Source: Takakia lepidozioides (taxonomy: Eukaryota > Plantae > Bryophyta). From it: a stretch of DNA of 64,000 nucleotides. Position 1 is the first letter of the stretch; every line of letters starts with the position of its first letter. Below are positions 29,692 through 47,384 of this stretch, one piece after another. The position numbers were made by a program, and so were the translations under genes. The stretch lies in NCBI GenBank assembly GCA_030704615.1, contig CM060731.1, positions 18,476,001 to 18,540,000 of the forward strand, given 5' to 3'. Under the pieces are notes generated by a model. That model was not told where the DNA came from and made no database searches. It worked only from the letters and a program-made list of their open reading frames with translations.

Positions 29692-32600
29692 TGTCGCGGC
29701 CCTTTGCCTTGAGGGCAGGGGGTCGGGACACATGAGGGGCTGCCCCTGTGGTGGGGGCAGCGGCAGCGATAGGTATGGGGGGTTGAAGCACCCTTGAGTG
29801 CCCAAGGCACTCAGGGAAGCGGAGGCGCTCACTAGGTGGAGCCCCGCACACCGGGTTGCGGTGGGGGTGGCTCCACAAGGGGTGGTGGTAGCTTAGTGGG
29901 ACTTAGTGGGGGTGGCATAGGACTCACCATGGGGGCGGAGACCTCGTGGTGGGAGTCGTGGGGAGTCTTGGGACTCATCACGGTCCATAGGGGCCGTGGT
30001 GAGCGGGCCAAGACTCACCGCGACTCACCACCGGGAATCGAGGGTCTTCGTGGTGGTTTGCCATAAAATGGCATGGCTGGTTGTGAAACCCCCGCGGACA
30101 GCTACAAAAGTATATATAGGGAGTAGTAACCTCGAGAACGGTGCAAGCCCGTTGGTGACCAAAAACTAGTGAGTAAGCGAGCGAGCCGGAAAGCGACCAA
30201 AGAGTGGGGAACTGTTCCGGACTGCCATTTACCAAAGGGAATTCTCCTAGTCCCAAATAGGTGGAGGGTCGAGAGGGAAGTGAAGGGGGACCGTTATGTC
30301 CCGGTGAGCAGCCGAAGCTCCAAGTTGGCCCGGACGGCCAGGTTGGGAGTCAGGCGCGCGCATCAAAACGAGTAACTATGACTTGAAGGGGAGCTTATCG
30401 AAGTGAGGTGCGCGACACTTGGTATCAGAGCTTAGAGTTCAGTACGCGATCGTCCGTGGGATTGGCCTCATCATGGGGTCGGGCAAGCCGAAGCGAAAGC
30501 GGAACGGCCCAAAAGATGATGATCCTGGTGAGCCCGATGGGGGCGACGTGTCACCGAGGCGGCCGTTTGAGGAAGCGATGAATGTTTCCGAAAATGAGGC
30601 CGCTCAAGAGCGGGAGGAATCTGAGGAGTCGGAGCCCGAGGAATCCTTGAGAGCTCCGACAAACCAAGAGATGCCTCCCATGCCGGCAGCCTTTTGGGAA
30701 GGGTTGTTGGCGCAGTTTGGCGGGACGTTGAAAGACGTGTTGAAGGCGGCTAATGCCACTTCCACTAAGGCAAAGTTTAAGGTGAAGCCTAAGAAACCCG
30801 ACACCTTCGAGGGCATCCGAAATCGGAAGGCACTCAACGCCTGGCTCTTGGAGCTGGAGCAGTACTTCCGGGCGGCCAAGTTGAGTGACGAGGATCGCGT
30901 GGAAGTGGCTCCCACCTATTTGAGGGGCTATGCTCAACAATGGTGGCAGAAACGCCTTCACGACCGAGGTCCAAGTCCGGAAACCTTGAACTGGAGTGGG
31001 TCAAGGAATTGATGAAGAGACAGTTTGTGCCCCTCAACGCGTCCTGGCTTGCCCAGGACAAGATGAGGAATTTGAAGCAAACAGATGACATTCGGGGGTA
31101 TGTCCAGGCTTTCAATGTGCTGTTGCTCGAAGTCGCGGACATGGCAGAACCAGAAATGGTCTTCAACTTTGTGGCGGGACTGGCCCCATGGGCCAGGCGG
31201 AAGTTGGAGGAGAAGCCACCCAAGACTTTGAACGAGGCAATTGAGAGGGCTGAATGTTTCTCGGATGTCCCTAGGGGTGAGAGACAAGGCCGTACGGAGC
31301 TGAACCACAAGAAGACCCGGCGGGAAGGTGACTCCTTCCGACCAGAAAAGAAGTGGGATAGGCCACGCGGCGATAATGGCACGTGGAAATCGAAGGGAGG
31401 ACCTTCACACGTCAAGGCGGCACCCGGTGCTTCGAAAAGAAAAGCGGGTGGAGCGGCTTATGGCGGACAGAAGGCGACCTTTGATGGAGTGTGTTTCAAT
31501 TGCGGGGAGCCCGGGCACATGGCCAAGAAGTGCACAAAACCTCGTCAATTGAACATGACTCGGGCAACCACGGAGCTGTCGGAAGATACCATCAGTCGCT
31601 TGGTGGAAGCGGTGGTTGCCAGGACTTGCAAGGTAGGCAACTATTCTTGTGAGTTGTATCAGGAAACTGGCGCCCTACGTAAAGAGAGTCAGTTATTGTT
31701 CGTGGAAGGGATAATATCCGGAACTAACGTGTCGTTGTTGGTGGACACAGGAGCGTCGCACTCTTTCATGACGCCGGCGACGGCGCGAAAGTTGGGACTC
31801 CCGACAAGTGACGTGGGGGCCTCTATTGAGGTGCGTTCTGCCAAAGGAGAACCACAGTTGGCGACAAGGTTGGCGTTTGATGTTCCTCTTCAACTGGGGA
31901 GTTGGGAGGGACGTGAGAACTTCACCATCTGCGAGATCGATGGAGTGGATCTCATTTTGGGGATGACCTTTTTGAGCAAATCCGGAGCGGTCATAGATGG
32001 CCGCAAGAGAGTAGTCACGCTGCCATGTGGGAATGGTGGCGAGGTCTTACGAGTGTCGGAAACGCCCAAATCCGTGGGAGGGCGAATAAACATTCTATCA
32101 GCAAGGGAGTGGGCCGTGGAGGAGGCACACGAGCCCCAATTTTTGCTTTACATTAGAGAAGTGAAAGGAGAAGGCGATGGGGAGCCGAGCCCAGATTGGA
32201 TCAAGGAGATTTTGGAGAAATACCAGGATGTTATGTCGGAGGATTTACCAAGCGGCTTGCCACCGCGAAGAAGAGTTGACCACAAAATTGAGGTGATACC
32301 GGGATCGGAACCGCCTGCCAAGGCGCCCTACCGGTTGAGCCACAGAGAGTTGGTCGAGCTGAAGACTCAGCTCAAGGATCTAATGTCAAAGGGGTACATC
32401 CGGCCGAGTAAGTCACCTTACGGAGCCCCGGTGCTATTTGCAGACAAGAAGGATGGGACGCTGCGGATGTGTGTCGATTACAGGGCTCTGAATAAGGTGA
32501 CTATAAAAAACCGGTACCCTTTGCCAAGGATCGACGATCTCTTCGATTGGTTGGCAGGAGCGAAGTATTTCAGCCGGATCGACTTGCGCTCTGGCTATCA

Positions 32601-35600
32601 CCAAATTCGGGTGGCGGAAGGAGATGAGGAGAAGACCGCGTACAGGACAAGGTATGGTTCATACGAGTTCTTGGTGATGCCTTTTGGGTTCACCAATGCA
32701 CCAGCGACATTTAGCACGCTGATGAACAGCCTTTTCCAGGAGTGGTTGGATGACTTTGTGATCGTGTACATCGACGACATCTTGGTGTACTCGAAAACAA
32801 AGGAGGAGCACCTGGAGCACCTCAAAATGGTGTTCCAAAAATTGCGGGAAGGGAAGCTTTACGCCAAAGCTTCAAAGTGCGAATTCGGGGTCACGAAAGT
32901 GGAGTTCTTGGGGTATGTGATTACACAGGATGGGATCAAAATGGATGACAAAAAGGTGAGGGCGATCTTGGACTGGGAGCCTCCGACTTCGGTCCCGGGA
33001 GTGCGATCCTTCCTAGGACTCGCCTCCTATTACCGGAAGTATGTGAGAAATTTCGCCAAGATTGCGGGGCCGCTGTCGGACCTTCTGTGTAAATCTAAAG
33101 TCTGGGCGTGGAACACCTTTTGTGGCCAAGCTTTTGCTGAATTGAAGCAACGGATGGCGGAAGCTCCAGTCTTGAAAATCCCGGAGTTCGATCGTCCGTT
33201 CGAGATACATACAGATGCATCGGACTTCGCGATTGGGGGTGTACTTATGCAAGATGGACGTCCAGTGGCTTACGAAAGTAAGAAACTGAATGAAGTGGAG
33301 CGACGGTGGCCGACGCACGAAAAAGAGATGAAGGCGGTGGTGCATTGCCTTGAGCTCTGGCACCACTATGTTGGTTCCAACCCAGTGAAGGTGTTCACGG
33401 ACAATGTCACGGTGAAGTATTTTGCCACGCAGCCCAAGTTGTCCCCAAAACAACTTAGGTGGCAAGATACTTTGGCGGTGTTCGACGTGGATATCCAGTA
33501 CAAACCGGGACGAGACAACGTGGTGGCCGATGCTTTAAGTAGAAAGAAGCAGCTCTTGTTGGTGTACAAGGGCGAGACGGCGCTCCAAAGGAAGATCCGG
33601 AAGGCTTGCCGGAAGGATGAGCTGGCGAAGTCCGTGATGCAGGACTTGAGGATGGGGGTTAAATCACAGTTCCACTTGCAAAATGGACTGCTCCGGTATA
33701 AGCAAAAACGTCTCTACGTGCCGAAGGGAGGGATCAGAGATAGCCTCTTGAAAGAATGCCATGATAGCCCGCTTGCGGGCCACGGCGGAGCCAAGCGCAC
33801 TACGGCACTCTTGAAGAAAGAGTATTTCTGGCCCAAACTGAGGGAGGAGGCAGAGGAGTATGTCAAGACATGCACCACATGCCAACAAAACCGGAGCGAG
33901 TACAAAAAGCAAGCGGGGCTGTTACAACCCTTGCCGATTCCAGAGGGGACTTGGGAATGCGTCTCGATGGACTTCATGACTGCTATGCCGCTGTCAAAAG
34001 GATTCGATGCAATCATGGTGGTGGTATATAGGTTCAGTAAAATGGGCCATTTCATCCCCACCAAGGAGACGGCAACGGTGCAGGAGACAGGGCGACTTTA
34101 CTTCGCCCACGTCTTAAAGCATCATGGAGTCCCGAGGGATATTGTCTCGGACCGCGATCCAAAGTTTACGAGTAAATTCTGGAGAGCACTTTGGAAGAAG
34201 ATGGGGACGAGGCTGAAGATGAGCACCGCCTTCCAACCTACGACCGACGGCCAAACAGAAAGAGTGAATTCCGTAGTGAAGCAGATCTTGCGGAATTACG
34301 TGTCGGCAGACCAAACAGACTGGGTGGAACACTTAGACGCGGCAGAGTTCTGTTATAATAACACAGAACACTCCGCAACGGGAGTTTCCCCTTTCGTATT
34401 GGTCTATGGAAAAGCACCTCTGGTGCCGACAAGTTGGGCCGCCAAGGACGTTGAGGAACCGGCAGTAGCGGCGGTACTGGAAGAACGCGAGCGTTTGTTG
34501 AAGCTCGCAAAGTACAACATTGCCAAAGCTAGGAAACGGTATTAAAGGCAGGCGAATCGGAAGCGGAGGGAAGTGAAGTTTGAGGCAGGCATGGAGGTCT
34601 GGTTGAACATCAAGAATTTCCAACTACCTCCGGAAGTGAGTCCGAAGTTTGTACCTCCGTATGCGGGACCTTTTCGCATTCGGAAGGTTATGAATGAGGA
34701 TGTGTATGAATTGGAGCTACCGGCAAACAGCAAGGTGCACCCAGTATTCCATGTCTCCCTTTTTAAGCCTTACTTCAAAGATGAAGCGCGGCCGAATCGG
34801 CATCAAGTGTTGCGTCCGCCACCTATGCTGTTGGATCATGAAAATGAACCTGAGTACGAGGTGGAGGCAATACTTAAGTCGAGGAGGTTCAAGAACCGAG
34901 AAACTGAGTATCTCGTCAAATGGAAGGGCTATCATCATGTGGAGGCATCTTGGGTGCGTGCCTCAGAAATGGGAAACGCATCCGAGGCGGTTGCAGCTTT
35001 CGAAGGGCGACCTCAAAAGCGGAAGAAGCGTTGATGGGGACATCAACCTTGGAGCGTGGGGGAGGAAATGCATGCTTAGCCCGGCTTAGCTAGCTTAGTA
35101 ATCCGATTGCAAAAACTTGTATTGTACCAAAACGTGCTATAAATGAAATGGATTCCAAATGTTGTGCGTCCTATATTGTTTGGAATGGTGATGCATGGTA
35201 TGGTTGGCTAGTGTGTAGAATGCATGCTAGCTTATAAAAGTGGGAGAGGTAAATTGGGTTAATCGTGTGTTTGCGTAGTGCCGAAATCGGGTAACCCCCA
35301 TCCAAGGGGCGAGGAAACTTGCGCCTTCTTTGGGAGTTCACGTGCTAGTGCGCACCTGGCACGTGCGCGTACTATAACTGCGCTACCGAGGGGGTTGCCT
35401 TGTAGTGCAGGCTAACGCGGAAGCTACGTGCTTCCGTTCACGTACTATAATCGTGTAGCCTCGGGACGAAGTCGTAGTGCGGCTTCGGCGTGTTCCCGTA
35501 CCTCAGGCCAGCATTCCAAGGCGGACCCAATTGTAGTGATTGGGGCGCACGGTTGGTTCAAGGTTATCTTCCTAGTCAAAGAGGGTTCCAGGTGAACCCT

Positions 35601-36666
35601 TGCTCAAGGTGATGCCAAAAACGGCCTCATGAGCGATCGCAAGCAAGGTTGTTGCAGTAAGGCGATTCGATCCTCGGGGAGGATCGTTCCTTGGCCTTAC
35701 AGTAGGCTAAGAAGAGTGCACTGGGAGGAGCTGGAGAGGCTCCACCCTTGGCCGGGACTTGGAGGAAGTCGGCCGAACTAGCTAGTGGAGAGTAGAGTCA
35801 AGTGTGGGGTTTGGTTCTTTGCCATGGGACGCCATGGTACGGAAACAAACTCCTTGATGTGGGACGCCACAACTTGGATGTTCGTTTCTACAAAATGGAC
35901 AAGTCGATGAGGACATCGACTCCCTGTTGGTAGGGGTGTGTGTCGCGGCCCTTTGCCTTGAGGGCAGGGGGTCGGGACACATGAGGGGCTGCCCCTGTGG
36001 TGGGGGCAGTGGCAGCGATAGGTATGGGGGGCTGAAGCACCCTTGAGTGCCCAAGGCACTCAGGGAAGCGGAGGCGCTCACTAGGTGGAGCCCCGCACAC
36101 CGGGTTGCGGTGGGGGTGGCTCCACAAGGGGTGGTGGTAGCTTAGTGGGACTTAGTGGGGGTGACATAGGACTCACCATGGGGGCGGAGACCTCGTGGTG
36201 GGAGTCGTGGGGAGTCTTGGGACTCATCACGGTCCATAGGGGCCGTGGTGAGCAGGCCAAGACTCACCGCGACTCACCACCGGGAATCGAGGGTCTTCGT
36301 GGTGGTTCGCCATAAAATGGCATGGCTGGTTGTGAAACCCCCGCGGACAGCTACAGAAGTATATATAGGGAGTAGTAACCTCGAGAACGGTGCAAGCCCG
36401 TTGGTGACCAAAAACTAGTGAGTAAGCGAGCGAGCCGGAAAGCGACCAAAGAGTGGGGAACTGTTCCGGACTGCCATTTACCAAAGGGAATTCTCCTAGT
36501 CCCAAATAGGTGGAGGGTCGAGAGGGAAGTGAAGGGGGACCGTTATGTCCCGGTGAGCAGCCGAAGCTCCAAGTTGGCCCGGGCGGCCAGGTTGGGAGTC
36601 AGGCGCGCGCATCAAAGCGAGTAACTATGATTTGAAGGGGAGCTTATCGAAGTGAGGTGCGTGACA
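29692..36666 (+). mobile_element. Full-length chromoviral Ty3/Gypsy retrotransposon (Galadriel/Tcn1-like)
   Basis: 726-bp LTRs 29692-30417 and 35941-36666 (TG..CA, 10 differences counted). TSD GGCAT. PBS TGGTATCAGAGC at 30420. Confidence 0.97.
30473..35034 (+). pseudogene. gag-pol of the chromovirus (CCHC, PR, RT, RH, INT, chromodomain)
   Basis: [59 protein letters not shown]. One frameshift near 30990 and one stop at 34543. Confidence 0.93.
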
Positions 36667-37830: not shown

Positions 37831-40560
37831 GACCCACTTGTTTTGATAAGTGATCAAGGCATGCAAATCGTGTTTACAATTAACCACCAGCTTTGTTATT
37901 AACCGTCCTATGGAGCATACATTAAGTACAAAAATACTGTACAATACCAGTTACCAACGTATCCTATATATAGGCAATTCTCTCCATTGGTGAACTTAAC
38001 CCTTAAAGGAGGAGACCTCTTTTGGTGGGCCACCCCCAAAAATGGACATACCTTCCTGTTTGAGCTGTATCTTGCTACCCTGAATCATCCAGAAATTTGA
38101 ACCTTACAAATACATTCCTAACTACCACATTCATCTACCCCCAAAAAGTCAGGAAGATCCACCGTTGGAATGGGTAGATTATAACAAATTACTATTGTGA
38201 ATTTTTTAAGCCCACTCAAAATTTCTGAAAATGCAGGTTTGACCATGACTTTTGAGGACCATCTGCATTTTTCATCTGAAAACTGAGGGGAGATTCAAAT
38301 TCCTGGGCACCTTCTTGGGTTTGTCTCCAATTTCCAGATCAAAAATCCTGGATTCCATAGGGGTTGCTTTGTATGTGAAAATGGGGGGGGGGGAGGGGGG
38401 ATTTTCACATCAATATACACCGTGGGGAGAAATGCCACCATATGCTATGAAATTTAGGGAGGAACCAGATTCCCTCCGGTTGGTAGCTGCATTGTAGTAG
38501 TGAGTAGAAGCTGGGAAAAAATATTCTGATTACAAGCAGATTTCAACCTTGGATGTGGTTTTTATCCAATTTTTGAGTCCAAACCAACTCAGGCCATTTG
38601 GCCTAAAACCGGCAAGACTTTCCGGCAAGCTTTTGGGGGGCCACGTCATAAAAAACCACGAGATTTGAAGGGTCGCCTTCCCCACACCCACGACGGGTGT
38701 CGCAGGCAGATCCGGGTGGGATCCGCTGTCCACACGACCCGCATGCAGCCCCCCTCATTTCTCTCGCCTCGCCTGGCGCCAAGTACCTGCCATGTGGGCG
38801 GGTCAACACTCTAGACACCCCTAAACCACACAAAATTCGGCCTTCAAAAAATTCCAGGCGGGGGAGGTTTTACTATTTTTCAGTGCTGTAAATTGCTCCG
38901 CACGCTTCACCCCAGCCCCGCACACTTTTGCTTCAGAAAACGTTTTCATCCGACTTCATCCGCAGATTCTGTACCGTGGATGAAAAGCGACGCGACCCGA
39001 TTCTGGTCGCGTCGTCGTTTAGGGGGTTACCAACCAATGACATTAACGCATCCATCTAAGGACTTCATCAGCCACGTAAGGTCACATATAGGGGTCCATT
39101 CAAGGTCACGCAAGACACCTACCTCACGTTTCCTGTAAATATAGCTGTACAGGACTTCATACATCCCTGTGGATCGGGTTGCCTGACCTTCCCAAACTGG
39201 CCAAATGAGTTGGGGTACATAGTGAGAGGGACAACGACTTGATGACGTCGGTGTGGGGCAGTGTGATGAGCTAGCAGGCAAGGTGCATGTACCGGGGCTC
39301 TAGACCTATCACCAGGTTATGAATTGTGGCTTGGTTTGCTCTGGAGTTTTCAAGTAGGAGATCTTGGTTTGTGGGTGTCTCACGGCCGCAGTTAAGGTCC
39401 TCGTATCAATATTGGGTTTTTGATCAGAGGTAAGGTCTAAGCCTTAACCTGTTTCCTGCTTTTTGATGCTTTGGGATTGAATCTCTGTCTGTACACCCAG
39501 TTCAGATTTATGGCATATGGGGGTTGTTTCAGGTGGTCTGAAGGGTGTCTTGTAGCCTGGCATCTTTGGGTGTGGTATAGATTCGTTGTCATCGGAATTG
39601 GGGAGTATGCCCGAGGTTGCAATTGCATGTTTGTTGAAGATTGTGCTTGTCTATGTCAGAGATCTTTGCTGCAAATGCCTTGAATAAACTTTTCTTCCAA
39701 TCACCAACTTTGCATCAGTGCGAAGATGCAGCGTGATTATAGAAACCCATGAGAGAGACTCTGATATAGTTCGCCAAATCATGTATCTTTTCTTCTCAAT
39801 CGTGGTCAGTGCACGCTCGGTACCGTACATATTGGAAGACCGTCCTCTTCAACTATTAGGTAAGGAATTTTAGGTGGAATTTCATCTCTTGAAACCATCA
39901 GTTAGGAAACTTTGGGTTGAATTACACTGCATGTTGCTTTGTAGGAATTCTGGGCTTACGGGGCTCTGCAGAGTATAGACTCGAGTACCCTCGCGAAAGA
40001 CTGGCTCCAATAGTGGAACTCAATCTGGGCTTTCATTTTTTCTCAACAGGAGAGCATCGCCTTCACTAGAGTATTCACCCCTAGAATCCAGAGCCAAAGA
40101 CAACTGCCATTCTTCCTGATTCTATCACTCATTTAAAGAGAGGTACACTGACAGTCATGTGGATGCAAAGAGGCCTCTCGTTCACGAGTTTAGTACTTAC
40201 TACAACGCATCAGAACTGTGTCCCTATCGTCACGATCGTGCCCACAGGTTAAATATGTGGATTTCCTTAGTGTGAACGCCCAAACATCCAGAGTGCCCAA
40301 GCATCCCGAGTGCGAAGGCCTTTCAGGCAGTCCTTGAGTCCTTAAGTGATAAGAAAGTTACAGTTGATTTTCCCTGGGCTTTGAACTTGAGCAACATTTC
40401 CCTGCAGCCTTACTCATCTTGCCCATAGATGTCCTCCACTGATTTCTCAGGGAGGTGTGCCCTTGAGAAAGGGAGAGTTAGTTGTGAAGTAGAGGTGGTC
40501 TTCTTCTAACAATGCAAAGTTAGATGCAGTTTGCGATTGAGGCATCGAAAGTTCTACAGC

Positions 40561-40971
40561 ATGACGTCTGCAGCAGCACAATCAAATGGTTTATCAGCAT
40601 TTCCTCCTCCAATTAGGTCGTATGATGTGCACATCTATTACTTTCAGAGGAATGAACAACATGTGCAAGCAGCCAAGGCTCTCCGAGAAGAAATTATTGA
40701 GAAATTTCCTGAATTGAAGGTATACAATCGGGATCAACCAGTAGGACCGCACCCAACAGGAATGTTTGAGGTGGACCTCAAAACACCAGAACAATTTCTG
40801 AGTTTTGTGCCATGGATTCAAGTAAATCGGCGCGGCTTCTCTGTGTTGGTGCATCCCAACACCGGGAATGAGGTAAAGGATCACACTACGAACGCCATGT
40901 GGATTGGGAGAAAGCCAATGCTGGACCTGTCATGCTTGTCAGGGGAAGATGACAGTAAGTATGGTTTGTGA
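40561..40971 (+). CDS. DOPA 4,5-dioxygenase family protein (fungal/bacterial type), intronless, 136 aa
   Basis: YDVHIYYFQ..FPEL....QPVGPHPTGMFEV...PEQF..FVPW..NR.G.SVLVHPNTG.E..DHT..AMWIG...LDL. All family His motifs present; ORF intact. Confidence 0.88.
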   Translation: MTSAAAQSNGLSAFPPPIRSYDVHIYYFQRNEQHVQAAKALREEIIEKFPELKVYNRDQPVGPHPTGMFEVDLKTPEQFLSFVPWIQVNRRGFSVLVHPNTGNEVKDHTTNAMWIGRKPMLDLSCLSGEDDSKYGL

Positions 40972-42262
40972 AGACTTAGTGGTGAGTGACCCAGTCTTCT
41001 TCGGGATCACATATTTCCAACTTACAACTGAATCGGCTCTCATCTGAATTTGGACAGGATTTCTGCCAACCACATCTTAAGCAGTGCATTTTGTGAAAGT
41101 CATTGTGAAATAACCCTGATATTGTGAAGGGGGATCTATAGAGACTGTTGTGGAGACCTGGCTGGGTAAGCTCCTCCATTTATGGAAATATTACAATCAC
41201 TTCTTTGGCAGCCTTCAATGGCTATTGGATTGGTTTTGTGGTCTCTGAACCTGGTCCAAAATTCCGAGTCTTTGAACATCAGTCAGTGTCGACTCTCCAT
41301 TCAATCTTGTGATTGAATGTTGTGGTATGTGTCGGCTGGTGAGTGGTTGTCACCTTGCTCTATGTAAACACAACCAAAGGTCAACCTACTCAAAAGGTTG
41401 AACAGTTCCTGCAAGCGACCAGTTTTACCATGCATGGCAAATAGCATAGAACAGTTTGTTCCTCAGCAAAGACACCTAATGGATGTCAAATCATGAGGCT
41501 GTGGTCACGAGGTAGGCATTGAAGCAAAGAGGATGATATGACTTTCTTTACAGTGACGTACCTCAGGGTTGGTGTTGCGCATTCTGCATTTTTGGGATTT
41601 GCACTGCTGAACCAGTCGAAACCTAAATGCACCCTTACAAAGCTCAGGAGATCACAGTTGGAAGCCACTCCATCCAGGCTTTGGGGACAAGCTCAAGAAT
41701 GTGAACAAGTGCGCTATTTCGGAATACAGATTGAATGAGTCAAGTTTGGAGACAATGAATTCAAAGGTTGAGGAACTTTAAGAACAGCAACAACAAATTT
41801 GGACAAGTTCAATTTGAACTTAAGAACAGCGACAACAAATTTGGACAGGTTCGATTTAAAAAGGTCGGTTGGTTTCTCCAACACTCTGACCTGTAGTTCC
41901 ACCCTATCTGGGTAACTCCCAAGATTATTTTGACTAGTGCATTCCTACGGCACAAGCCTCTATGAGGGCCTCTCTTGCGGCAAGCTGTAATCGCTACTGA
42001 GTTGGTGCTATAACCTTCGCTGATGGAAATCCTGCTACCACCAAAGCACTGAAGAATTGAATTTGTTGATGTAGAGTGGACTCTAGAAACAATCTTAAAC
42101 AGGTGAATTCACCTGTAAGAGTAAGAAGCAGTGTAGCATGGCCACTGAGGTAGTTGACCACTGTAACACCCTCAAGAGTTCTGTGAGGGATACAAGAAGA
42201 GGGCTAGTCGTCAACATCCTTAGTCTGCATTGAGAATTTGGGAATCAGAATCTTTAATGTTA

Positions 42263-42787
42263 CTAGTGTTGGGTCTTGGGTGAATTCATCAGCCGGACAA
42301 AATGTTGGAAAGAGACCTGGGAATCAGCCGAGCCGCTTGCTGTTTCCAGCATTGCTGTAAGGTCTTCCAAAGAGAGCGCTTGTCCGAGCGTGTTCATGAC
42401 GCCCTTGATATCATCCACACAGATCACACCATCCCCGTTTCTATCTAGCACACCAAACATATCCTCCAACACCTTGTTGTCCGGACCAAATACACCCCCT
42501 GCTTTGCCCGCCGATTGAGAATGCAAAAGACTCTGAAAGTCTTCAAAATTTACGCCACCATGACCATTCCGATCTGCAACTGCTATCATGCGATCAATAT
42601 CGTCTGCACTCACACTGCTGTTGAGATTTGTTTGCAGGAAGGCCAACAGATCAGACGCCACAATGTGTCCATCACCATCCTTGTCCAGAAGATCAAATGC
42701 CTCTTTCATATGAGCCACATCAACGCCCAAGTCTATAGAGCGGCCAAGCGTACGCAACCCGGAGCTTTCGGATCCAATTGGCCACAT
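42263..42787 (-). CDS. Calmodulin-like EF-hand protein (CML), intronless
   Basis: EF loops DKDGDGHIVASD, DRNGHGGVNFED, DRNGDGVICVDD and a degenerate fourth. First ATG at 42787. Confidence 0.9.
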   Translation of the reverse strand: MWPIGSESSGLRTLGRSIDLGVDVAHMKEAFDLLDKDGDGHIVASDLLAFLQTNLNSSVSADDIDRMIAVADRNGHGGVNFEDFQSLLHSQSAGKAGGVFGPDNKVLEDMFGVLDRNGDGVICVDDIKGVMNTLGQALSLEDLTAMLETASGSADSQVSFQHFVRLMNSPKTQH

Positions 42788-44273
42788 ATTCGAAAATCTG
42801 CTCAATAATACACCGTCACTGAGCTCTTGATTCAAGTCCTTGGAATCTCTTAGATCGTTCTAATTGTCACAACTTTTAATCTCTCCAAAGCAATTTGATC
42901 AAAAGTTCTTTGCAGCAATTTGAAAAGATCGCTCTCGCCGAAAAAAAAGAGAGAGACCAAAGGTATAAGTAAAGACGATGTCTGATTTCTTGATAGAAAG
43001 CGGGACTAGCAAAGAGTCCCAAGTCTTTTCCAATTATTCAGAACATAAGCGTACGCCTCAAGCCAGCCTGGGGAGAGAAAGTCAAAGAGAGAGAATCGTG
43101 AGAGAAGCGAGGGAAGAAGAAGGAAACACAACCGCACTTCCACCAGCTAGAAACATGGTGGGCCGAGCGTTGATTGGAGCTTGCGAGTCGGAATTCTTGT
43201 TCTGCGGTTGCGAAGGTGGGCCCTTCTCTTGCCTCTGCCGAGCGAAGCAGATCTCTTCCTTGCGATTCAAGCAGCCACGCTGCTTCCAACAGTTAATTAG
43301 GGTTTGAGAATAATGAGAAGAATGTTGCAGTTCCAGTATCTTTCAGAGTATCCAGTGTGTTTTCAGTTGCAGGTTCGATCAGTATATCCTCTTGTTCGTC
43401 TCCTGTGATTGCCAGTCGTGGGTCCCATCGCTTCGTGCCGTTCTTCGTATCTGCATGCGCATGAGGTTTTTGCTCACCTGTACAACCGCATTCCACGTGG
43501 TGTCGTTGTGAAATCTTTGCACACAACATGGGTGAGACTCGATCTCCAGTACTACGAGTCTTGTATGTATTTCTATGCTTTTAAAGTCTCCTCTTACGAT
43601 AGTAATTTTGTGCGTTCCTTTGCACAGTTGCAGTTGCTTTTCAGAATGTCAAGCTTCGCTAGTTTTTCCAAGTTTTTTTTTCCCCTGTCAGGTTAACACT
43701 ACGTAGTGCGAATTTCTTCAAGCTGCCTAACATGCTATGAAAAACGAGAGAAGACTCCGGTCGAAACCGGAGTAAATAAGAGCCACTTGGCCTTGCGATA
43801 AAAAAAAATCTCAAAATTACTCTTTGTTTTGAAACTGCATCCCCGGCCATCCTCCGTTTATGTTCATGTGATTTCTAAGCTCTTACAATGCTTATCAGTA
43901 TGGGAGTATTGGGTGGTGGAATTCAACCCTTGTTTGCAACACATAGTTCACAATGGGTGGTGTCAAATATTTGATGATTGCAGTCAAATAAAAAAAAAAG
44001 TTTACCAGATATTTGTGCATATTATAAAATTAAATAATTAGAGGGTGGATGAAAAAAAAAAAAAACCCTCATAGAAAATCTCTTTATCCACATGATTCCC
44101 TAAACTATATGGGGAGTGGATTACTATGTACACCAACTCATTTGCCCAATTTGGGAAGGTCAGGCAGACTGACTATATATGGAGTAGTTTTCCTGAGGTC
44201 ACTAGTTCCACCTATCAAATGGAGAAACACTCATCATATTCACCAAGGATCAGTCTTGGGTGTTACCCCGTAA

Positions 44274-44775
44274 GGCCCTCACTGCACCAGCCTGCTATCG
44301 CCTGCTACACTCCTACTAACTACTGCTAAATAGAAAATTGCAGCCGCACTGACATGTTTTAAATGTTTTAGCCATAACTATAGTTATCTATCCTAAAAAC
44401 TTCCTTCCTACTTTAGAGCGAATCTAGCACTACCCCCCCCTAGTGCTAAATCTAAACAGGCGCGCCGTTTTGGGGCAACTGCCCGCGCAATTGTCTGCCA
44501 TCGCCATTCCCATTCGCCATTGAAAGCCTCGAGTAATGTGCAGCATTGTGCTCCCTTTGGCTATGGCGAAAAGGAAGCATGCGCGAGAAAATGGCGAGAG
44601 GAAGTCGGGCAGGGGCAGGCGAACGCATGTTTAAAACTAACAATATGCACTTAAAACATGTTAAGCTAAAATGTTGGTGCGGCAGGGATATTGTTAGTTG
44701 GAGCAACTGTTATGAAAATGGGCCTGCTAACCGTTAGCAGGTGTTCTACGCTAACAGCGCGGTGCGGCGGGGGCC
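44274..44775. mobile_element. PIF/Harbinger (Tourist-like) MITE, 502 bp
   Basis: TIRs GGCCCTCACTGCACC / GGTGCGGCGGGGGCC; TAA TSD on both sides. Confidence 0.85.
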
Positions 44776-45113
44776 TAAGAGAGCTATGATAGCATGGAGA
44801 AACATTCAACAATGTATATCCAACTCAATACTAACTTATACGCAGAGGGAATAAGAGGATATATAGGGACTGAGGCATTAATGAGTGGAAGGATCCCGGC
44901 GGTGGAAAGAATCAGCTAAATAAATAGCTGTCTACCATTACATTCTAGCCGATCTATATTTCATGTGCACTCATTATGCACTATGGGCCCTGGGCCCAGA
45001 TCTGGGTGTGAACTGTGTCCCAAAATCTCCCCACCCAGGGACTGCCTTTTGAAGTTCACCATCCCGTGACTTGAGTGATCGCCAAAGGAGCGAGGATGGT
45101 GATCATGCCATAC

Positions 45114-46018
45114 CTAGTCCATTCCCACACCCATAAACCTACTTCTTTTGAGGAAGGGGGCGAATGTCTCCAACACTTGACGAATAACCTCAAAACTTAT
45201 TGTCATCAATTTACCAGCCAGATATCGAATTGAATCCGAATCGTAGATGTGGCCAATGACAGGTATCATCTGAAAAATCGGGGAGCGCTCGAAGTAGTCC
45301 CACTGCTCTTTGATTTTCTTCACGGTCTTTCCTCCCTGCCCAACAAACCACGTAAAGCTTGAGTAAGCGATGGATCAAGTTCTATGATCGCTACTAGAGA
45401 AAATTTAGGTGCAAGTATCTGTACTAAAGATCAATTCCATAAGTATCTCAATGCATCTAAGAATGTTTCCATACACTCAGTCACGTACCAGTACGTGTCA
45501 TTTCCTGCTGTGCTTCCTTATTTCGCTTCGAATAATTGTGCTCATGGACGATGAGATACACTTCTTATGATGAATTCTGACTCCTTCCAACCATGGCAAA
45601 AGAAAAGATTTATTGTATCTAAGAAGTCATGACAACTACTGATTCTTTTCTGGGCAGGGTGAGAGAGTCAGACCTCTTGGACGTCCTCAAACTTGAGGAG
45701 AACCAAAATTTGCAGTGAAACGGTACACCAGAAATGAAGAACCGGTCTTGTCTTAACAAGCATCTGAACCGCCATGGCATTTTCTGTCTCATCATAAACA
45801 ATTGTTTGGAAATCAACTCCCTGGTAATGAGCGAACACCTCCCCAATTTGGTAGATGGTCGCTAAATTTTTGCTACCACCATCCGAGTTGATGTAGATAT
45901 GGTGAAACTGGACGTCTGGCGTGAAGTATTTTTCGATCACTTCGGCCTGTTGCTTTAGACTGGGCTTGCACACCAGCCCCCGGATGACGTCTTTGATTTC
46001 CTTTTTGGGATTCTCCAT
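45114..46018 (-). CDS. NTF2/SnoaL-fold-like protein, 2 exons (46018-45674, 45335-45114), 188 aa
   Basis: Phase-0 GT..AG intron joins MENPKKEIKDVIRGL..QAEVIEKYFTPDVQFHH..LKFEDVQE to GGKTVKKIKEQWDYFE..IP. Fold assignment is from recalled fungal ME(D/N)P.KEI..YFTPD.xF.H proteins. Confidence 0.75.
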
Positions 46019-47384
46019 TCTCCGACTTCCCGAGTCACGATTTCCTCTCTAGATCGGCCTGTAATGCGGGAGATAGCTGACAAGAGACACGCACAGACGG
46101 TTTTCAATAAAACAGTTGCCTTTGTTGGACGATACTCTCCATTTACTGACACCCCCTCACGGATCTGCTAATCAATTTAATATCTTCAGTCCCGCAACTC
46201 TCTAGTAGGCTTCCACTAGAGAAGTAACAATGAGAGAGAGATGGAGACCATACGAGAGGCTCAGAGGGAGTGCGGACCTAACGAGGTGGGCTGCATGCAC
46301 GGTGGCTGCGCTACACATGGCACCAAACACGGCGGCTAGGGAATTCCAAAAAGGCCTTGATGTGAAATGCATCGCAATTCACTTGATCACCCCCTAAAAG
46401 TGCGCAATTGAATTGAATTGCAAGGGCAATTGAATTGAATTGTCGGCACCCGATTCAATTGAATTGCGAATTTGGCAATTCAATTGAATTGCTGACTACA
46501 ATTCAATTGAATTGTAATCTATAATTTTTAACTTATTTTTGTATATAATATATATGTATATATTTAAATTATACATTTATACATACACAGGTATAAGCTA
46601 AAAATACATGTTGCCCGTCTATTCCAGTGTTGGGCGGTTCTTGCCTTTGTGAAGGAACCTTCGGTTCCGGTTCCACAAATTTTTGAAGAGACGGTTCCGG
46701 ATCCGGATCCGGTTATTTTTTATTAAGGCGGTTCCGGTCCGGTTCAGGTTCTGACTTTTTATGGGGGCGGTTCCAGTTACCGGTTAGTTGCTGGAAAAAA
46801 AACACCGGTTCCGGTTAGGTTCCGGTTCTTTTTTAAAAATATATTAAATTCTTTAAAAAAATTATTCTTCTGGAAAATTAGATGAACTGATCTGATTGGT
46901 CATACTGAATATTCAAAATTTTCAACTAAAACCAGGGAGTTTATTAGTAAAACAGAAGTAAATAAACTTATATGTTTTTTGTGATTGTCTTTTATGGTAT
47001 ATATAACAAGTTAAATACGCATGGTCTCCATTAAAAACGGAAAACCAGAGATTTTATAAGTTTTCGTACGGTGTAGCAAAGAACAACTAAAACAAACTAA
47101 CTATATAAGGATCTTAATTCAAAATACAAAACAAATTAAACATGTGTAATTCTATGGTTACCTTTTATGGTGCAGCAAAAGCACAACTAAAAAAAACTAC
47201 ATAAATTTGTGTTTTTTGGATGATGCTTTGTCGATATAGCATACAACAAACTAAGTACACGGGATGTCACTGAAATTTTCAATAAAAATGACAAATAAAC
47301 AAACTCCAATCAAAGGAGTATAGTGTAATATGTTGAGCAATAATTTGTCTCTAAGACAAATCATTCCACCTCAAAGAGGTTTGC

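What the first reader, a model, noticed from the sequence alone, without database searches (positions are those of the whole stretch)
40561..40971. Fungal-type DOPA 4,5-dioxygenase gene in a plant chromosome (HGT candidate)
Seen: intact, intronless 136-aa ORF with HIYY, VGPHP, SVLVHP and DH motifs, lying between plant TEs and a plant CML gene. Known: this family (Amanita DODA, bacterial homologs) is unrelated to the LigB-type DODA used by betalain plants. The FPEL..GPHP..MFEV..TP.QF..FVPW..NR pattern recalls ascomycete/basidiomycete members. Inference: horizontally acquired catechol ring-cleavage activity, possibly for betalamic acid/muscaflavin-like pigments or phenolic detoxification.
Basis: partly seen in the sequence, partly recalled or inferred. 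Interest (0 to 1): 0.7.

Follow-up and report, generated by a model that had tools for sequence, protein, structure and literature searches.

The report
Fungus-like dioxygenase of seed-free plants
This is a real, spliced plant gene of the mushroom-type DOPA-dioxygenase family with close relatives in hornworts, liverworts, lycophytes and ferns, so it is likely an old inherited land-plant gene (possibly taken from a fungus at the start of land-plant history) that likely opens catechol rings, not a recent transfer or a contaminant.

Summary
The ORF is real: 136 aa, Pfam PF08883 at 131 bits (cut-off 25), fold of 2PEB/2NYH, all family His/Asp kept. It is not contamination. Transcript-like contigs from two other studies splice out a 1,100-nt GT-AG intron in the 5' leader and match the CDS without a difference, so only the CDS is intronless. 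It is not a recent or lineage-specific transfer. Its closest relatives are hornwort, liverwort, lycophyte and fern proteins (53-66% identity), which form one clade with it (97/94). No named seed plant, moss or green alga was among the listed hits. A published domain table already counts the domain in 25/115 bryophyte and 6/300 vascular-plant genomes. The family's origin is open. Best trees put the plant clade among fungi, once beside Umbelopsis (97/94, but 72/0 with more rows), yet plants as sister to all other eukaryote copies is not rejected (p 0.29). An ancient fungal transfer gets about 45%. Activity is untested; pigment synthesis is unlikely to be the role. This copy has lost a pocket Trp kept in 30/30 plant relatives. 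The scan noted PF08883 before, in protists and bacteria, not this plant group.

The parts
39329..39429 (+). non-coding first exon (the true start may lie further upstream)
   Evidence: X5 contig covers 39329-39427 and X6 contig 39331-39427 before the joint; no ATG in the 132-nt spliced leader
39430..40529 (+). 1,100-nt GT-AG intron in the 5' leader
   Evidence: joint in X5 and X6, absent in DNA run X2 and in X1, X3, X4; splice sites read from the window
40530..41213 (+). second exon: 31 nt of leader, whole CDS, 3' untranslated part (end not fixed)
   Evidence: X5 contig 40528-41037 with 0 other letters; X6 contig 40528-41213 with 1 other letter at 41136, outside the CDS
40561..40971 (+). CDS of a 136-aa PF08883 (Amanita-type DOPA dioxygenase family) protein; conserved H24, H64, H98, D107, H108; one-residue gap and Trp-to-Arg change at Y55-N56-R57
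42263..42787 (-). neighbouring calmodulin-like EF-hand gene (context)
   Evidence: Pfam EF-hand_7 E 1.4e-20; its DNA contig abuts the dioxygenase contig at like depth
29692..36240 (+). Ty3/gypsy-type LTR element upstream (context; type read from the ORF by eye)
   Evidence: 300-nt direct repeats 99% alike; 1,201-aa polyprotein ORF 30940-34545

Best explanation
[quoted passage not shown] Shown: frame, family, fold model, splicing, plant clade. Inferred from characterised relatives (Amanita, Gluconacetobacter, Aspergillus sydowii): a divalent metal held by the conserved His residues (H98 among them) binds an ortho-diphenol and O2 and cuts next to the diol (2,3 or 4,5), giving seco-products that can cyclise; the protein is likely a homodimer. 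Most likely role: turnover or detoxification of the plant's own or environmental catechols (about 55%); pigment synthesis about 10%; other or lost activity the rest. L-DOPA cleavage in vitro: about 65% for the plant family, about 45% for this copy, which has lost a pocket Trp. Origin of the plant family: ancient transfer from an early fungal lineage is the single most likely source (about 45%), but is not shown.
For: Family and fold: PF08883 131 bits; model pLDDT 88.7 matches 2PEB, 2P8I, 2NYH at rmsd 1.3-1.8 A, the only 4 matches with E<=0.001. H24, H64, H98, D107, H108 are kept in the query and in 30 of 30 plant rows, and the four His in 312-314 of 316 other rows. Real plant gene: the same GT-AG joint in contigs of two studies, CDS without differences; DNA contig 39186-41689 abuts the contig holding the CML gene (41660/41681-44118) at depths 62.6/56.7, 26.7/28.0, 36.6/33.4; CDS GC 0.455 against window 0.464. 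Plant clade: named relatives in Nothoceros, Calypogeia, Marchantia, two Riccia, Diphasiastrum, Selaginella, Ceratopteris, two Adiantum; one clade at SH-aLRT 98 (23 of 98 rows) and 97/94 (12 of 48 rows). PMC13069868 Table S8: domain in 25/115 bryophyte and 6/300 tracheophyte genomes. Activity of relatives: PMC9097196, PMC6426604, bioRxiv 10.1101/2024.12.13.628389. Fungal neighbourhood: best named non-plant hit is Umbelopsis, 164 bits, 55%; plants plus Umbelopsis 97/94; all fungi as one clade rejected at p-AU 0.032.
Against: No plant member has been assayed, as far as my searches show. The query departs from columns conserved in at least 90% of plant relatives at 6 places, including W to R57 (30/30 W) next to a one-residue gap, and has a longer end branch than most plant rows (0.27-0.5), so it may be altered or weakened. 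In the 43-row tree plants alone are not one clade (Umbelopsis inside; plant monophyly in 36% of bootstraps, not rejected, p 0.43). The Umbelopsis link drops to 72/0 in the 48-row tree, and plants as sister to all other eukaryote rows is not rejected (p 0.285). The family is also in amoebozoans and a red-alga transcriptome, and at least one of 31 algal genomes holds the domain (PMC13069868 Table S3). Loss in seed plants rests on absence from the best 120 hits of two searches and on one published table. DNA runs X1-X4 may be the source of the assembly, and no single contig bridges the two genes by 31 letters.
Confidence: 0.7

Rival explanations
1. The plant family was never transferred from fungi: it descends vertically from an early eukaryote gene that was kept in fungi, amoebozoans, some protists and seed-free plants and lost in most algae and in seed plants.
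For: All 82 non-bacterial rows form one side against 16 bacterial-type rows (SH 99; 100/100). Members in Balamuthia, Amoeba proteus, Luapelamoeba, chytrids and blastoclads. Plants as sister to all other eukaryote rows not rejected (p 0.285). PMC13069868 Table S4 lists the domain only under losses (four nodes), never under gains, and it is in neither of its HGT tables.
Against: No named green alga among the best 120 hits of either profile search. Plants plus the Gracilaria row as one clade rejected (p 0.002); fungi plus amoebozoans as one side rejected (p 0.0005), though both tests hang on the one Gracilaria row, which may be a contaminant. Needs many losses.
Confidence: 0.35
2. One reading: a transfer from an ascomycete or basidiomycete into this plant's own lineage, used for betalamic-acid or muscaflavin-like pigment.
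For: Family is right; ascomycetes fill most of the hit list after the plants; the CDS has no intron.
Against: The 17 best hits (55-66%) all fall in the plant clade, and 6 of them carry plant names; query plus filamentous asco/basidiomycetes rejected (p 0.021). Betalains in plants are described as restricted to Caryophyllales (PMC9670752 passages).
Confidence: 0.04
3. This copy is a decaying or repurposed member: the gap and Trp-to-Arg change in the pocket have removed or changed its activity although it is still transcribed.
For: W is 30/30 in plant relatives and R57 in the query, beside a one-residue gap; five further departures from conserved columns; longer end branch.
Against: Frame intact and the same in two other studies; all His/Asp kept; this column varies outside plants (W 173, H 57, F 30, R 16 of 316); by my alignment it matches the 'region II' His that PMC9097196 judged unlikely to act in catalysis; model confidence stays above 90 across residues 51-70.
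Confidence: 0.2
4. The locus is fungal contamination or an assembly chimera.
For: Only the fungal-type family label.
Against: Plant clade; same spliced transcript in two other studies of the same species label; even depth across the gene and the CML neighbour.
Confidence: 0.01

Closest known systems
PF08883 DOPA_dioxygen family: Amanita muscaria AmDODA, Gluconacetobacter GdDODA, Anabaena AcDODA, Aspergillus sydowii AsDODA; solved members 2PEB (Nostoc), 2NYH/2P8I (Burkholderia)
   Same: Single small domain, same fold (rmsd 1.3-1.8 A, 34-35% identity), same GPHP, HP and DH motifs.
   Different: Eukaryote-type D-x-H (D22, H24) where bacterial rows have H-x-H; R57 with a one-residue gap at a pocket position; sits in a plant nuclear gene with a leader intron; substrate untested.
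Unstudied seed-free plant orthologs, e.g. Marchantia Mp2g09460 (MARPO_0158s0017), Ceratopteris KP509_21G004800, Diphasiastrum O6H91_13G064900
   Same: 53-66% identity, one clade; these are its likely orthologs.
   Different: All 30 plant rows keep the Trp that the query lost; Marchantia and Riccia sorocarpa carry an N-terminal extension that the query lacks.
LigB-type DODA of Caryophyllales (and Neolecta NiDODA, E. coli YgiD)
   Same: Same reaction in the characterised members of both families.
   Different: Unrelated family; no LigB hit in Pfam; PMC9097196 states no common origin; NiDODA is YgiD-like.
Microbial-type terpene synthase-like (MTPSL) genes of non-seed plants
   Same: Same pattern: microbe-like enzyme in non-seed land plants, missing from seed plants (title of Jia et al. 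2016 seen in reference lists; fungal origin stated in PMC7027989).
   Different: MTPSL origin and activity are published; here both are unproven.

Membership tests
PF08883 DOPA 4,5-dioxygenase family | Score above Pfam's curated cut-off over the whole profile | tested here: met
   131.3 bits against 25; profile 1-105 of 106
PF08883 DOPA 4,5-dioxygenase family | Fold of 2PEB/2NYH | tested here: met
   AlphaFold2 model pLDDT 88.7; Foldseek E 2e-12 to 3e-11, TM 0.84-0.86 by target, rmsd 1.3-1.8 A
PF08883 DOPA 4,5-dioxygenase family | Conserved His/Asp set proposed to bind the metal (PMC9097196) | tested here: met
   H24, H64, H98, D107, H108 present; conserved across 347 aligned rows of 398. Which three His bind the metal is inferred, not measured.
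PF08883 DOPA 4,5-dioxygenase family | Homodimer (GdDODA, 2NYH; PMC6426604) | not tested
PF08883 DOPA 4,5-dioxygenase family | Metal-dependent 2,3/4,5 extradiol cleavage of L-DOPA | not testable with these tools
   Needs an enzyme assay
LigB-type plant DODA | LigB domain | tested here: not met
   PF08883 is the only Pfam hit; only 2PEB and 2NYH/2P8I found among solved sequences
Recent or lineage-specific fungus-to-plant transfer | Closest relatives are fungi; absent from related plants | tested here: not met
   Closest relatives are seed-free plants of four lineages; query plus Dikarya rejected, p 0.021
Ancient fungus-to-land-plant transfer | Physically part of the plant genome and expressed | tested here: met
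   Spliced contigs from two studies; abutting DNA contigs at like depth
Ancient fungus-to-land-plant transfer | Plant clade nested in a fungal clade with support | tested here: inconclusive
   With Umbelopsis 97/94 but 72/0; all-fungi clade rejected p 0.032; plants outside all other eukaryote rows not rejected p 0.285
Ancient fungus-to-land-plant transfer | Absent from the algal sisters of land plants | tested here: inconclusive
   No named green alga in the best 120 hits, but many rows are unnamed, and at least one alga holds the domain in PMC13069868 Table S3

The most novel reading that the evidence does not exclude
The ancestor of land plants took a second, mushroom-type DOPA/catechol ring-cleaving enzyme from an early fungal partner (Mucoromycota-like). 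Hornworts, liverworts, lycophytes and ferns kept it and seed plants lost it, so seed-free plants can make betalamic-acid or muscaflavin-type products, or other ring-opened phenolics, by a route independent of the Caryophyllales LigB enzyme.
Probability: 0.25. Interest if true: 0.7.

Novelty: new member of a known kind. Interest (0 to 1): 0.4.

Why it matters
The locus itself is one more copy of a conserved gene. The family is the point: an unassayed catechol-cleaving enzyme type kept across seed-free plants and apparently missing from seed plants. Marchantia has an ortholog (Mp2g09460), so function can be tested at once by knockout and assay. If it came from an early fungus, it joins MTPSL among fungal enzymes taken up at the move to land. 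If it cleaves DOPA, the view that plants reach betalamic acid only through LigB-type DODA needs a footnote.

Tried and rejected
No whole genome is held, so copy number, paralogs and tyrosinase or CYP76AD partners in this plant were not checked. The careful 98-row tree did not finish; its quick tree is cited. The plant's lineage could not be fixed: the query is nearest to the hornwort row by path, without support; I did not pursue it. No listed run is on record as RNA; X5 and X6 are taken as RNA because they alone show spliced joints. An upstream extension of the protein was considered: the spliced leader is open in frame but has no ATG; an earlier start further upstream is not excluded. Metagenome scan: 49 loci, 1 of them from the plant clade (L001, CDS also without intron), most of the rest closest to fungal proteins; none holds a CML-like gene, so synteny was not testable. 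Prokaryote genome scan: 3 loci at 34-38% identity, no close bacterial donor; patterns were plant-based, so this is a weak test. Atlas search gave only bacterial PF08883 clusters at 0.89-0.90, which says nothing on origin. Literature: eight searches found no paper on this family in seed-free plants and none naming Mp2g09460. Supplements of PMC12513842 (1 file), PMC11906373 (3 files, one more unreadable), PMC7027989 (2 files, one cut; 2 of 26 'dopa' places seen, both dopamine terms) and PMC12890914 (11 files, one cut) showed no PF08883 or Mp2g09460. Ma et al. 2022 (PMID 35235827) and Burroughs et al. 2019 (PMC6664185) are not held; either may already treat this family. An Ephedra EST labelled DOPA_dioxygen together with U-box and RING (PMC6342172) was set aside as an unverified label, though it bears on the seed-plant loss.

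Full report
Observation. Window 40561-40971 (+) translates without a stop into 136 aa. Pfam gives one family, PF08883 DOPA_dioxygen, at 131.3 bits against a cut-off of 25. Among solved structures only 2PEB and 2NYH/2P8I match by sequence. A model from a 21-row alignment has mean pLDDT 88.7 and matches the same entries at rmsd 1.3-1.8 A; they are the only 4 matches at E<=0.001. The surroundings are plant-like: LTR elements, a hAT-type ORF, and RRM, OPT, PPR and EF-hand genes.

It is a spliced plant gene. Of 10 listed runs, 7 hold part of the stretch; 4 of these may be the source of the assembly. Contigs of X5 and X6, from two other studies with the same species label, join 39427 to 40528 across 1,100 nt with GT..AG ends, and cover the CDS with no other letter. 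The four DNA runs carry the intron unbroken. The window shows canonical sites at 39429/39430 and 40529/40530, and the spliced leader of 132 nt has no ATG. So the CDS is intronless but the gene is not. In X1, X3 and X4 the contig 39186-41689 abuts the contig with the CML gene, at depths 62.6/56.7, 26.7/28.0 and 36.6/33.4. The overlap is under 31 letters and these runs may not be independent, so this is supporting evidence only. CDS GC is 0.455, window 0.464.

Relatives. A single-sequence search gave 38 hits; the best 17 are 55-66% identical and include Nothoceros (hornwort), Calypogeia, Marchantia Mp2g09460, two Riccia and Diphasiastrum. A profile of 15 plant-clade rows gave 2,826 hits, best 120 listed; it adds Ceratopteris, Adiantum and Selaginella (53-55%), then Umbelopsis (164 bits), then mostly ascomycetes. 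A profile of 16 further eukaryote-type rows gave 420 hits, best 120 listed. Neither list names a seed plant, a moss or a green alga, but many rows carry no name. The representative search found 1,678 clusters, best 150 listed; 30 proteins in all were looked up, which named chytrids, a blastoclad, yeasts, Balamuthia, Amoeba proteus, Luapelamoeba and a Gracilaria transcriptome. PMC13069868 (passages and supplements seen) counts the domain in 25 of 115 bryophyte and 6 of 300 tracheophyte genomes, gives one domain combination in algae, and lists it as lost at N10, N5, N1 and the lycophyte ancestor and never as gained. I did not see the figure; that N1 is seed plants and N5 bryophytes is my inference from the gained domains. 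So the presence of the domain in seed-free plants is on record, without comment.

Trees. FastTree on 245 of 295 rows (50 short rows dropped) put the query in a 31-row plant clade, SH 93. IQ-TREE quick on 98 chosen rows gave plants 98, eukaryote-type against bacterial-type 99, and a weak group (86) of plants with Umbelopsis, yeasts and three unnamed rows. Careful trees: 43 rows (35 named eukaryotes, 8 bacterial-type rows of which 1 is named) gave plants plus Umbelopsis 97/94, with plants alone one clade in 36% of bootstraps. 48 eukaryote-type rows gave plants 97/94, Umbelopsis as sister at only 72/0, inside an 82/89 group with most fungi. AU tests on the 43-row set, 11 in all: rejected were fungi plus amoebozoans (p 0.0005), all fungi (0.032), fungi without Umbelopsis (0.049), plants plus Gracilaria (0.002), query plus filamentous Dikarya and one chytrid (0.021), plants plus the same (0.044), Umbelopsis plus all Dikarya (0.008), Umbelopsis plus filamentous Dikarya and one chytrid (0.039). 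Not rejected were plants alone (0.43) and plants plus bacteria, meaning plants outside all other eukaryote rows (0.285); that last test was started and finished, so 10 distinct results stand. The groups were named after I had seen trees, the alignment has 129 columns and several p values are near 0.05, so they are weak. Reading: one old plant family; no recent Dikarya donor; fungal ancestry is the best tree but is not proven. Fungi themselves do not form one clade, which points to old duplications or further transfers. Direction between plants and Umbelopsis cannot be told.

How it likely works. Characterised members cut L-DOPA at 2,3 and 4,5 to give muscaflavin and betalamic acid: AmDODA needs a metal (PMC9097196, passages and section 2.4); GdDODA is a homodimer 46% identical to 2NYH (PMC6426604, passages); AsDODA of Aspergillus sydowii, which groups with these, turned L-DOPA yellow in vitro (bioRxiv 10.1101/2024.12.13.628389, abstract and two sections; its supplements are closed). 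The query keeps H24, H64, H98, D107 and H108, each present in 30 of 30 plant rows (347 of 398 proteins aligned). By alignment to 2NYH, H98 is the His that PMC9097196 calls conserved in all DODAs (my inference from spacing). I therefore predict a metal-dependent extradiol catechol dioxygenase. Betalains in plants are described as limited to Caryophyllales (PMC9670752, passages), and Neolecta expresses a working DODA of the other family without making betalains (PMC13263728, abstract and two sections), so in vitro activity would not imply pigment. Catechol turnover is the likelier role; hornworts, for example, are rich in rosmarinic acid (PMC7010833, passages).

A peculiarity of this copy. All 30 plant relatives have Trp before the D/E-x-P-x-G-P-H motif; the query has Y-N-R-D, one residue shorter, with Arg there. 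The change is the same in X5 and X6, so it is no assembly error. Outside plants this column is W, H, F or R, and it matches a pocket region judged non-catalytic in PMC9097196. It may shift specificity or weaken the enzyme.

Comparison and novelty. It is a member of PF08883 by score, fold and residues; activity and dimer are untested. It is not LigB-type. As a pattern it resembles MTPSL genes (PMC7027989 passages; PMC12448838 passages had no 'DOPA'). Eight paper searches found nothing on this family in seed-free plants, but Ma et al. 2022, the main survey of transfers into land plants, could not be read. Earlier notes of this scan report PF08883 fused to LigB in marine protists (not checked here), which fits a wide eukaryote spread; none matched by sequence or place.

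Verdict. Real gene, right family, wrong time scale. New member of a known kind; interest 0.4, carried by the unstudied plant family and its open origin.

Noticed in passing
window 45668-46018 (-), with exons to about 44038: A spliced gene with a SigF NTF2-like domain (PF24840, E 1.4e-22; 338-nt minus-strand intron in X5). Its first Atlas hit is a cluster that is mostly Basidiomycota (0.93). A second microbe-like gene 5 kb from the dioxygenase; origin untested.
   Followed up: partly
window 43475-45213 (-): One X5 contig joins 43475 to 45213 across 1,737 nt with minus-strand intron ends (30 letters on the short side): a transcript upstream of the CML gene seems to splice out of the NTF2 gene's second exon, a possible read-through or alternative end.
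   Followed up: no
window 39180-39223 and 44123-44166: A 44-nt inverted repeat (93%) encloses the dioxygenase and CML genes; the unit occurs elsewhere in the genome (loose ends). Possibly ends of small DNA transposons.
   Followed up: no
window 29692-36240 (+): LTR element with 300-nt LTRs 99% alike and a 1,201-aa polyprotein frame: a young insertion.
   Followed up: no
window about 46390-46520: Short AATTGAATTG-rich repeat with depth several hundred times the surroundings in three DNA runs: a very high-copy repeat.
   Followed up: no
proteins P0013 (Marchantia) and P0015 (Riccia sorocarpa): These orthologs carry about 50 extra N-terminal residues that look by eye like a plastid transit peptide; the query has none. 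Diphasiastrum has four copies on one chromosome.
   Followed up: no
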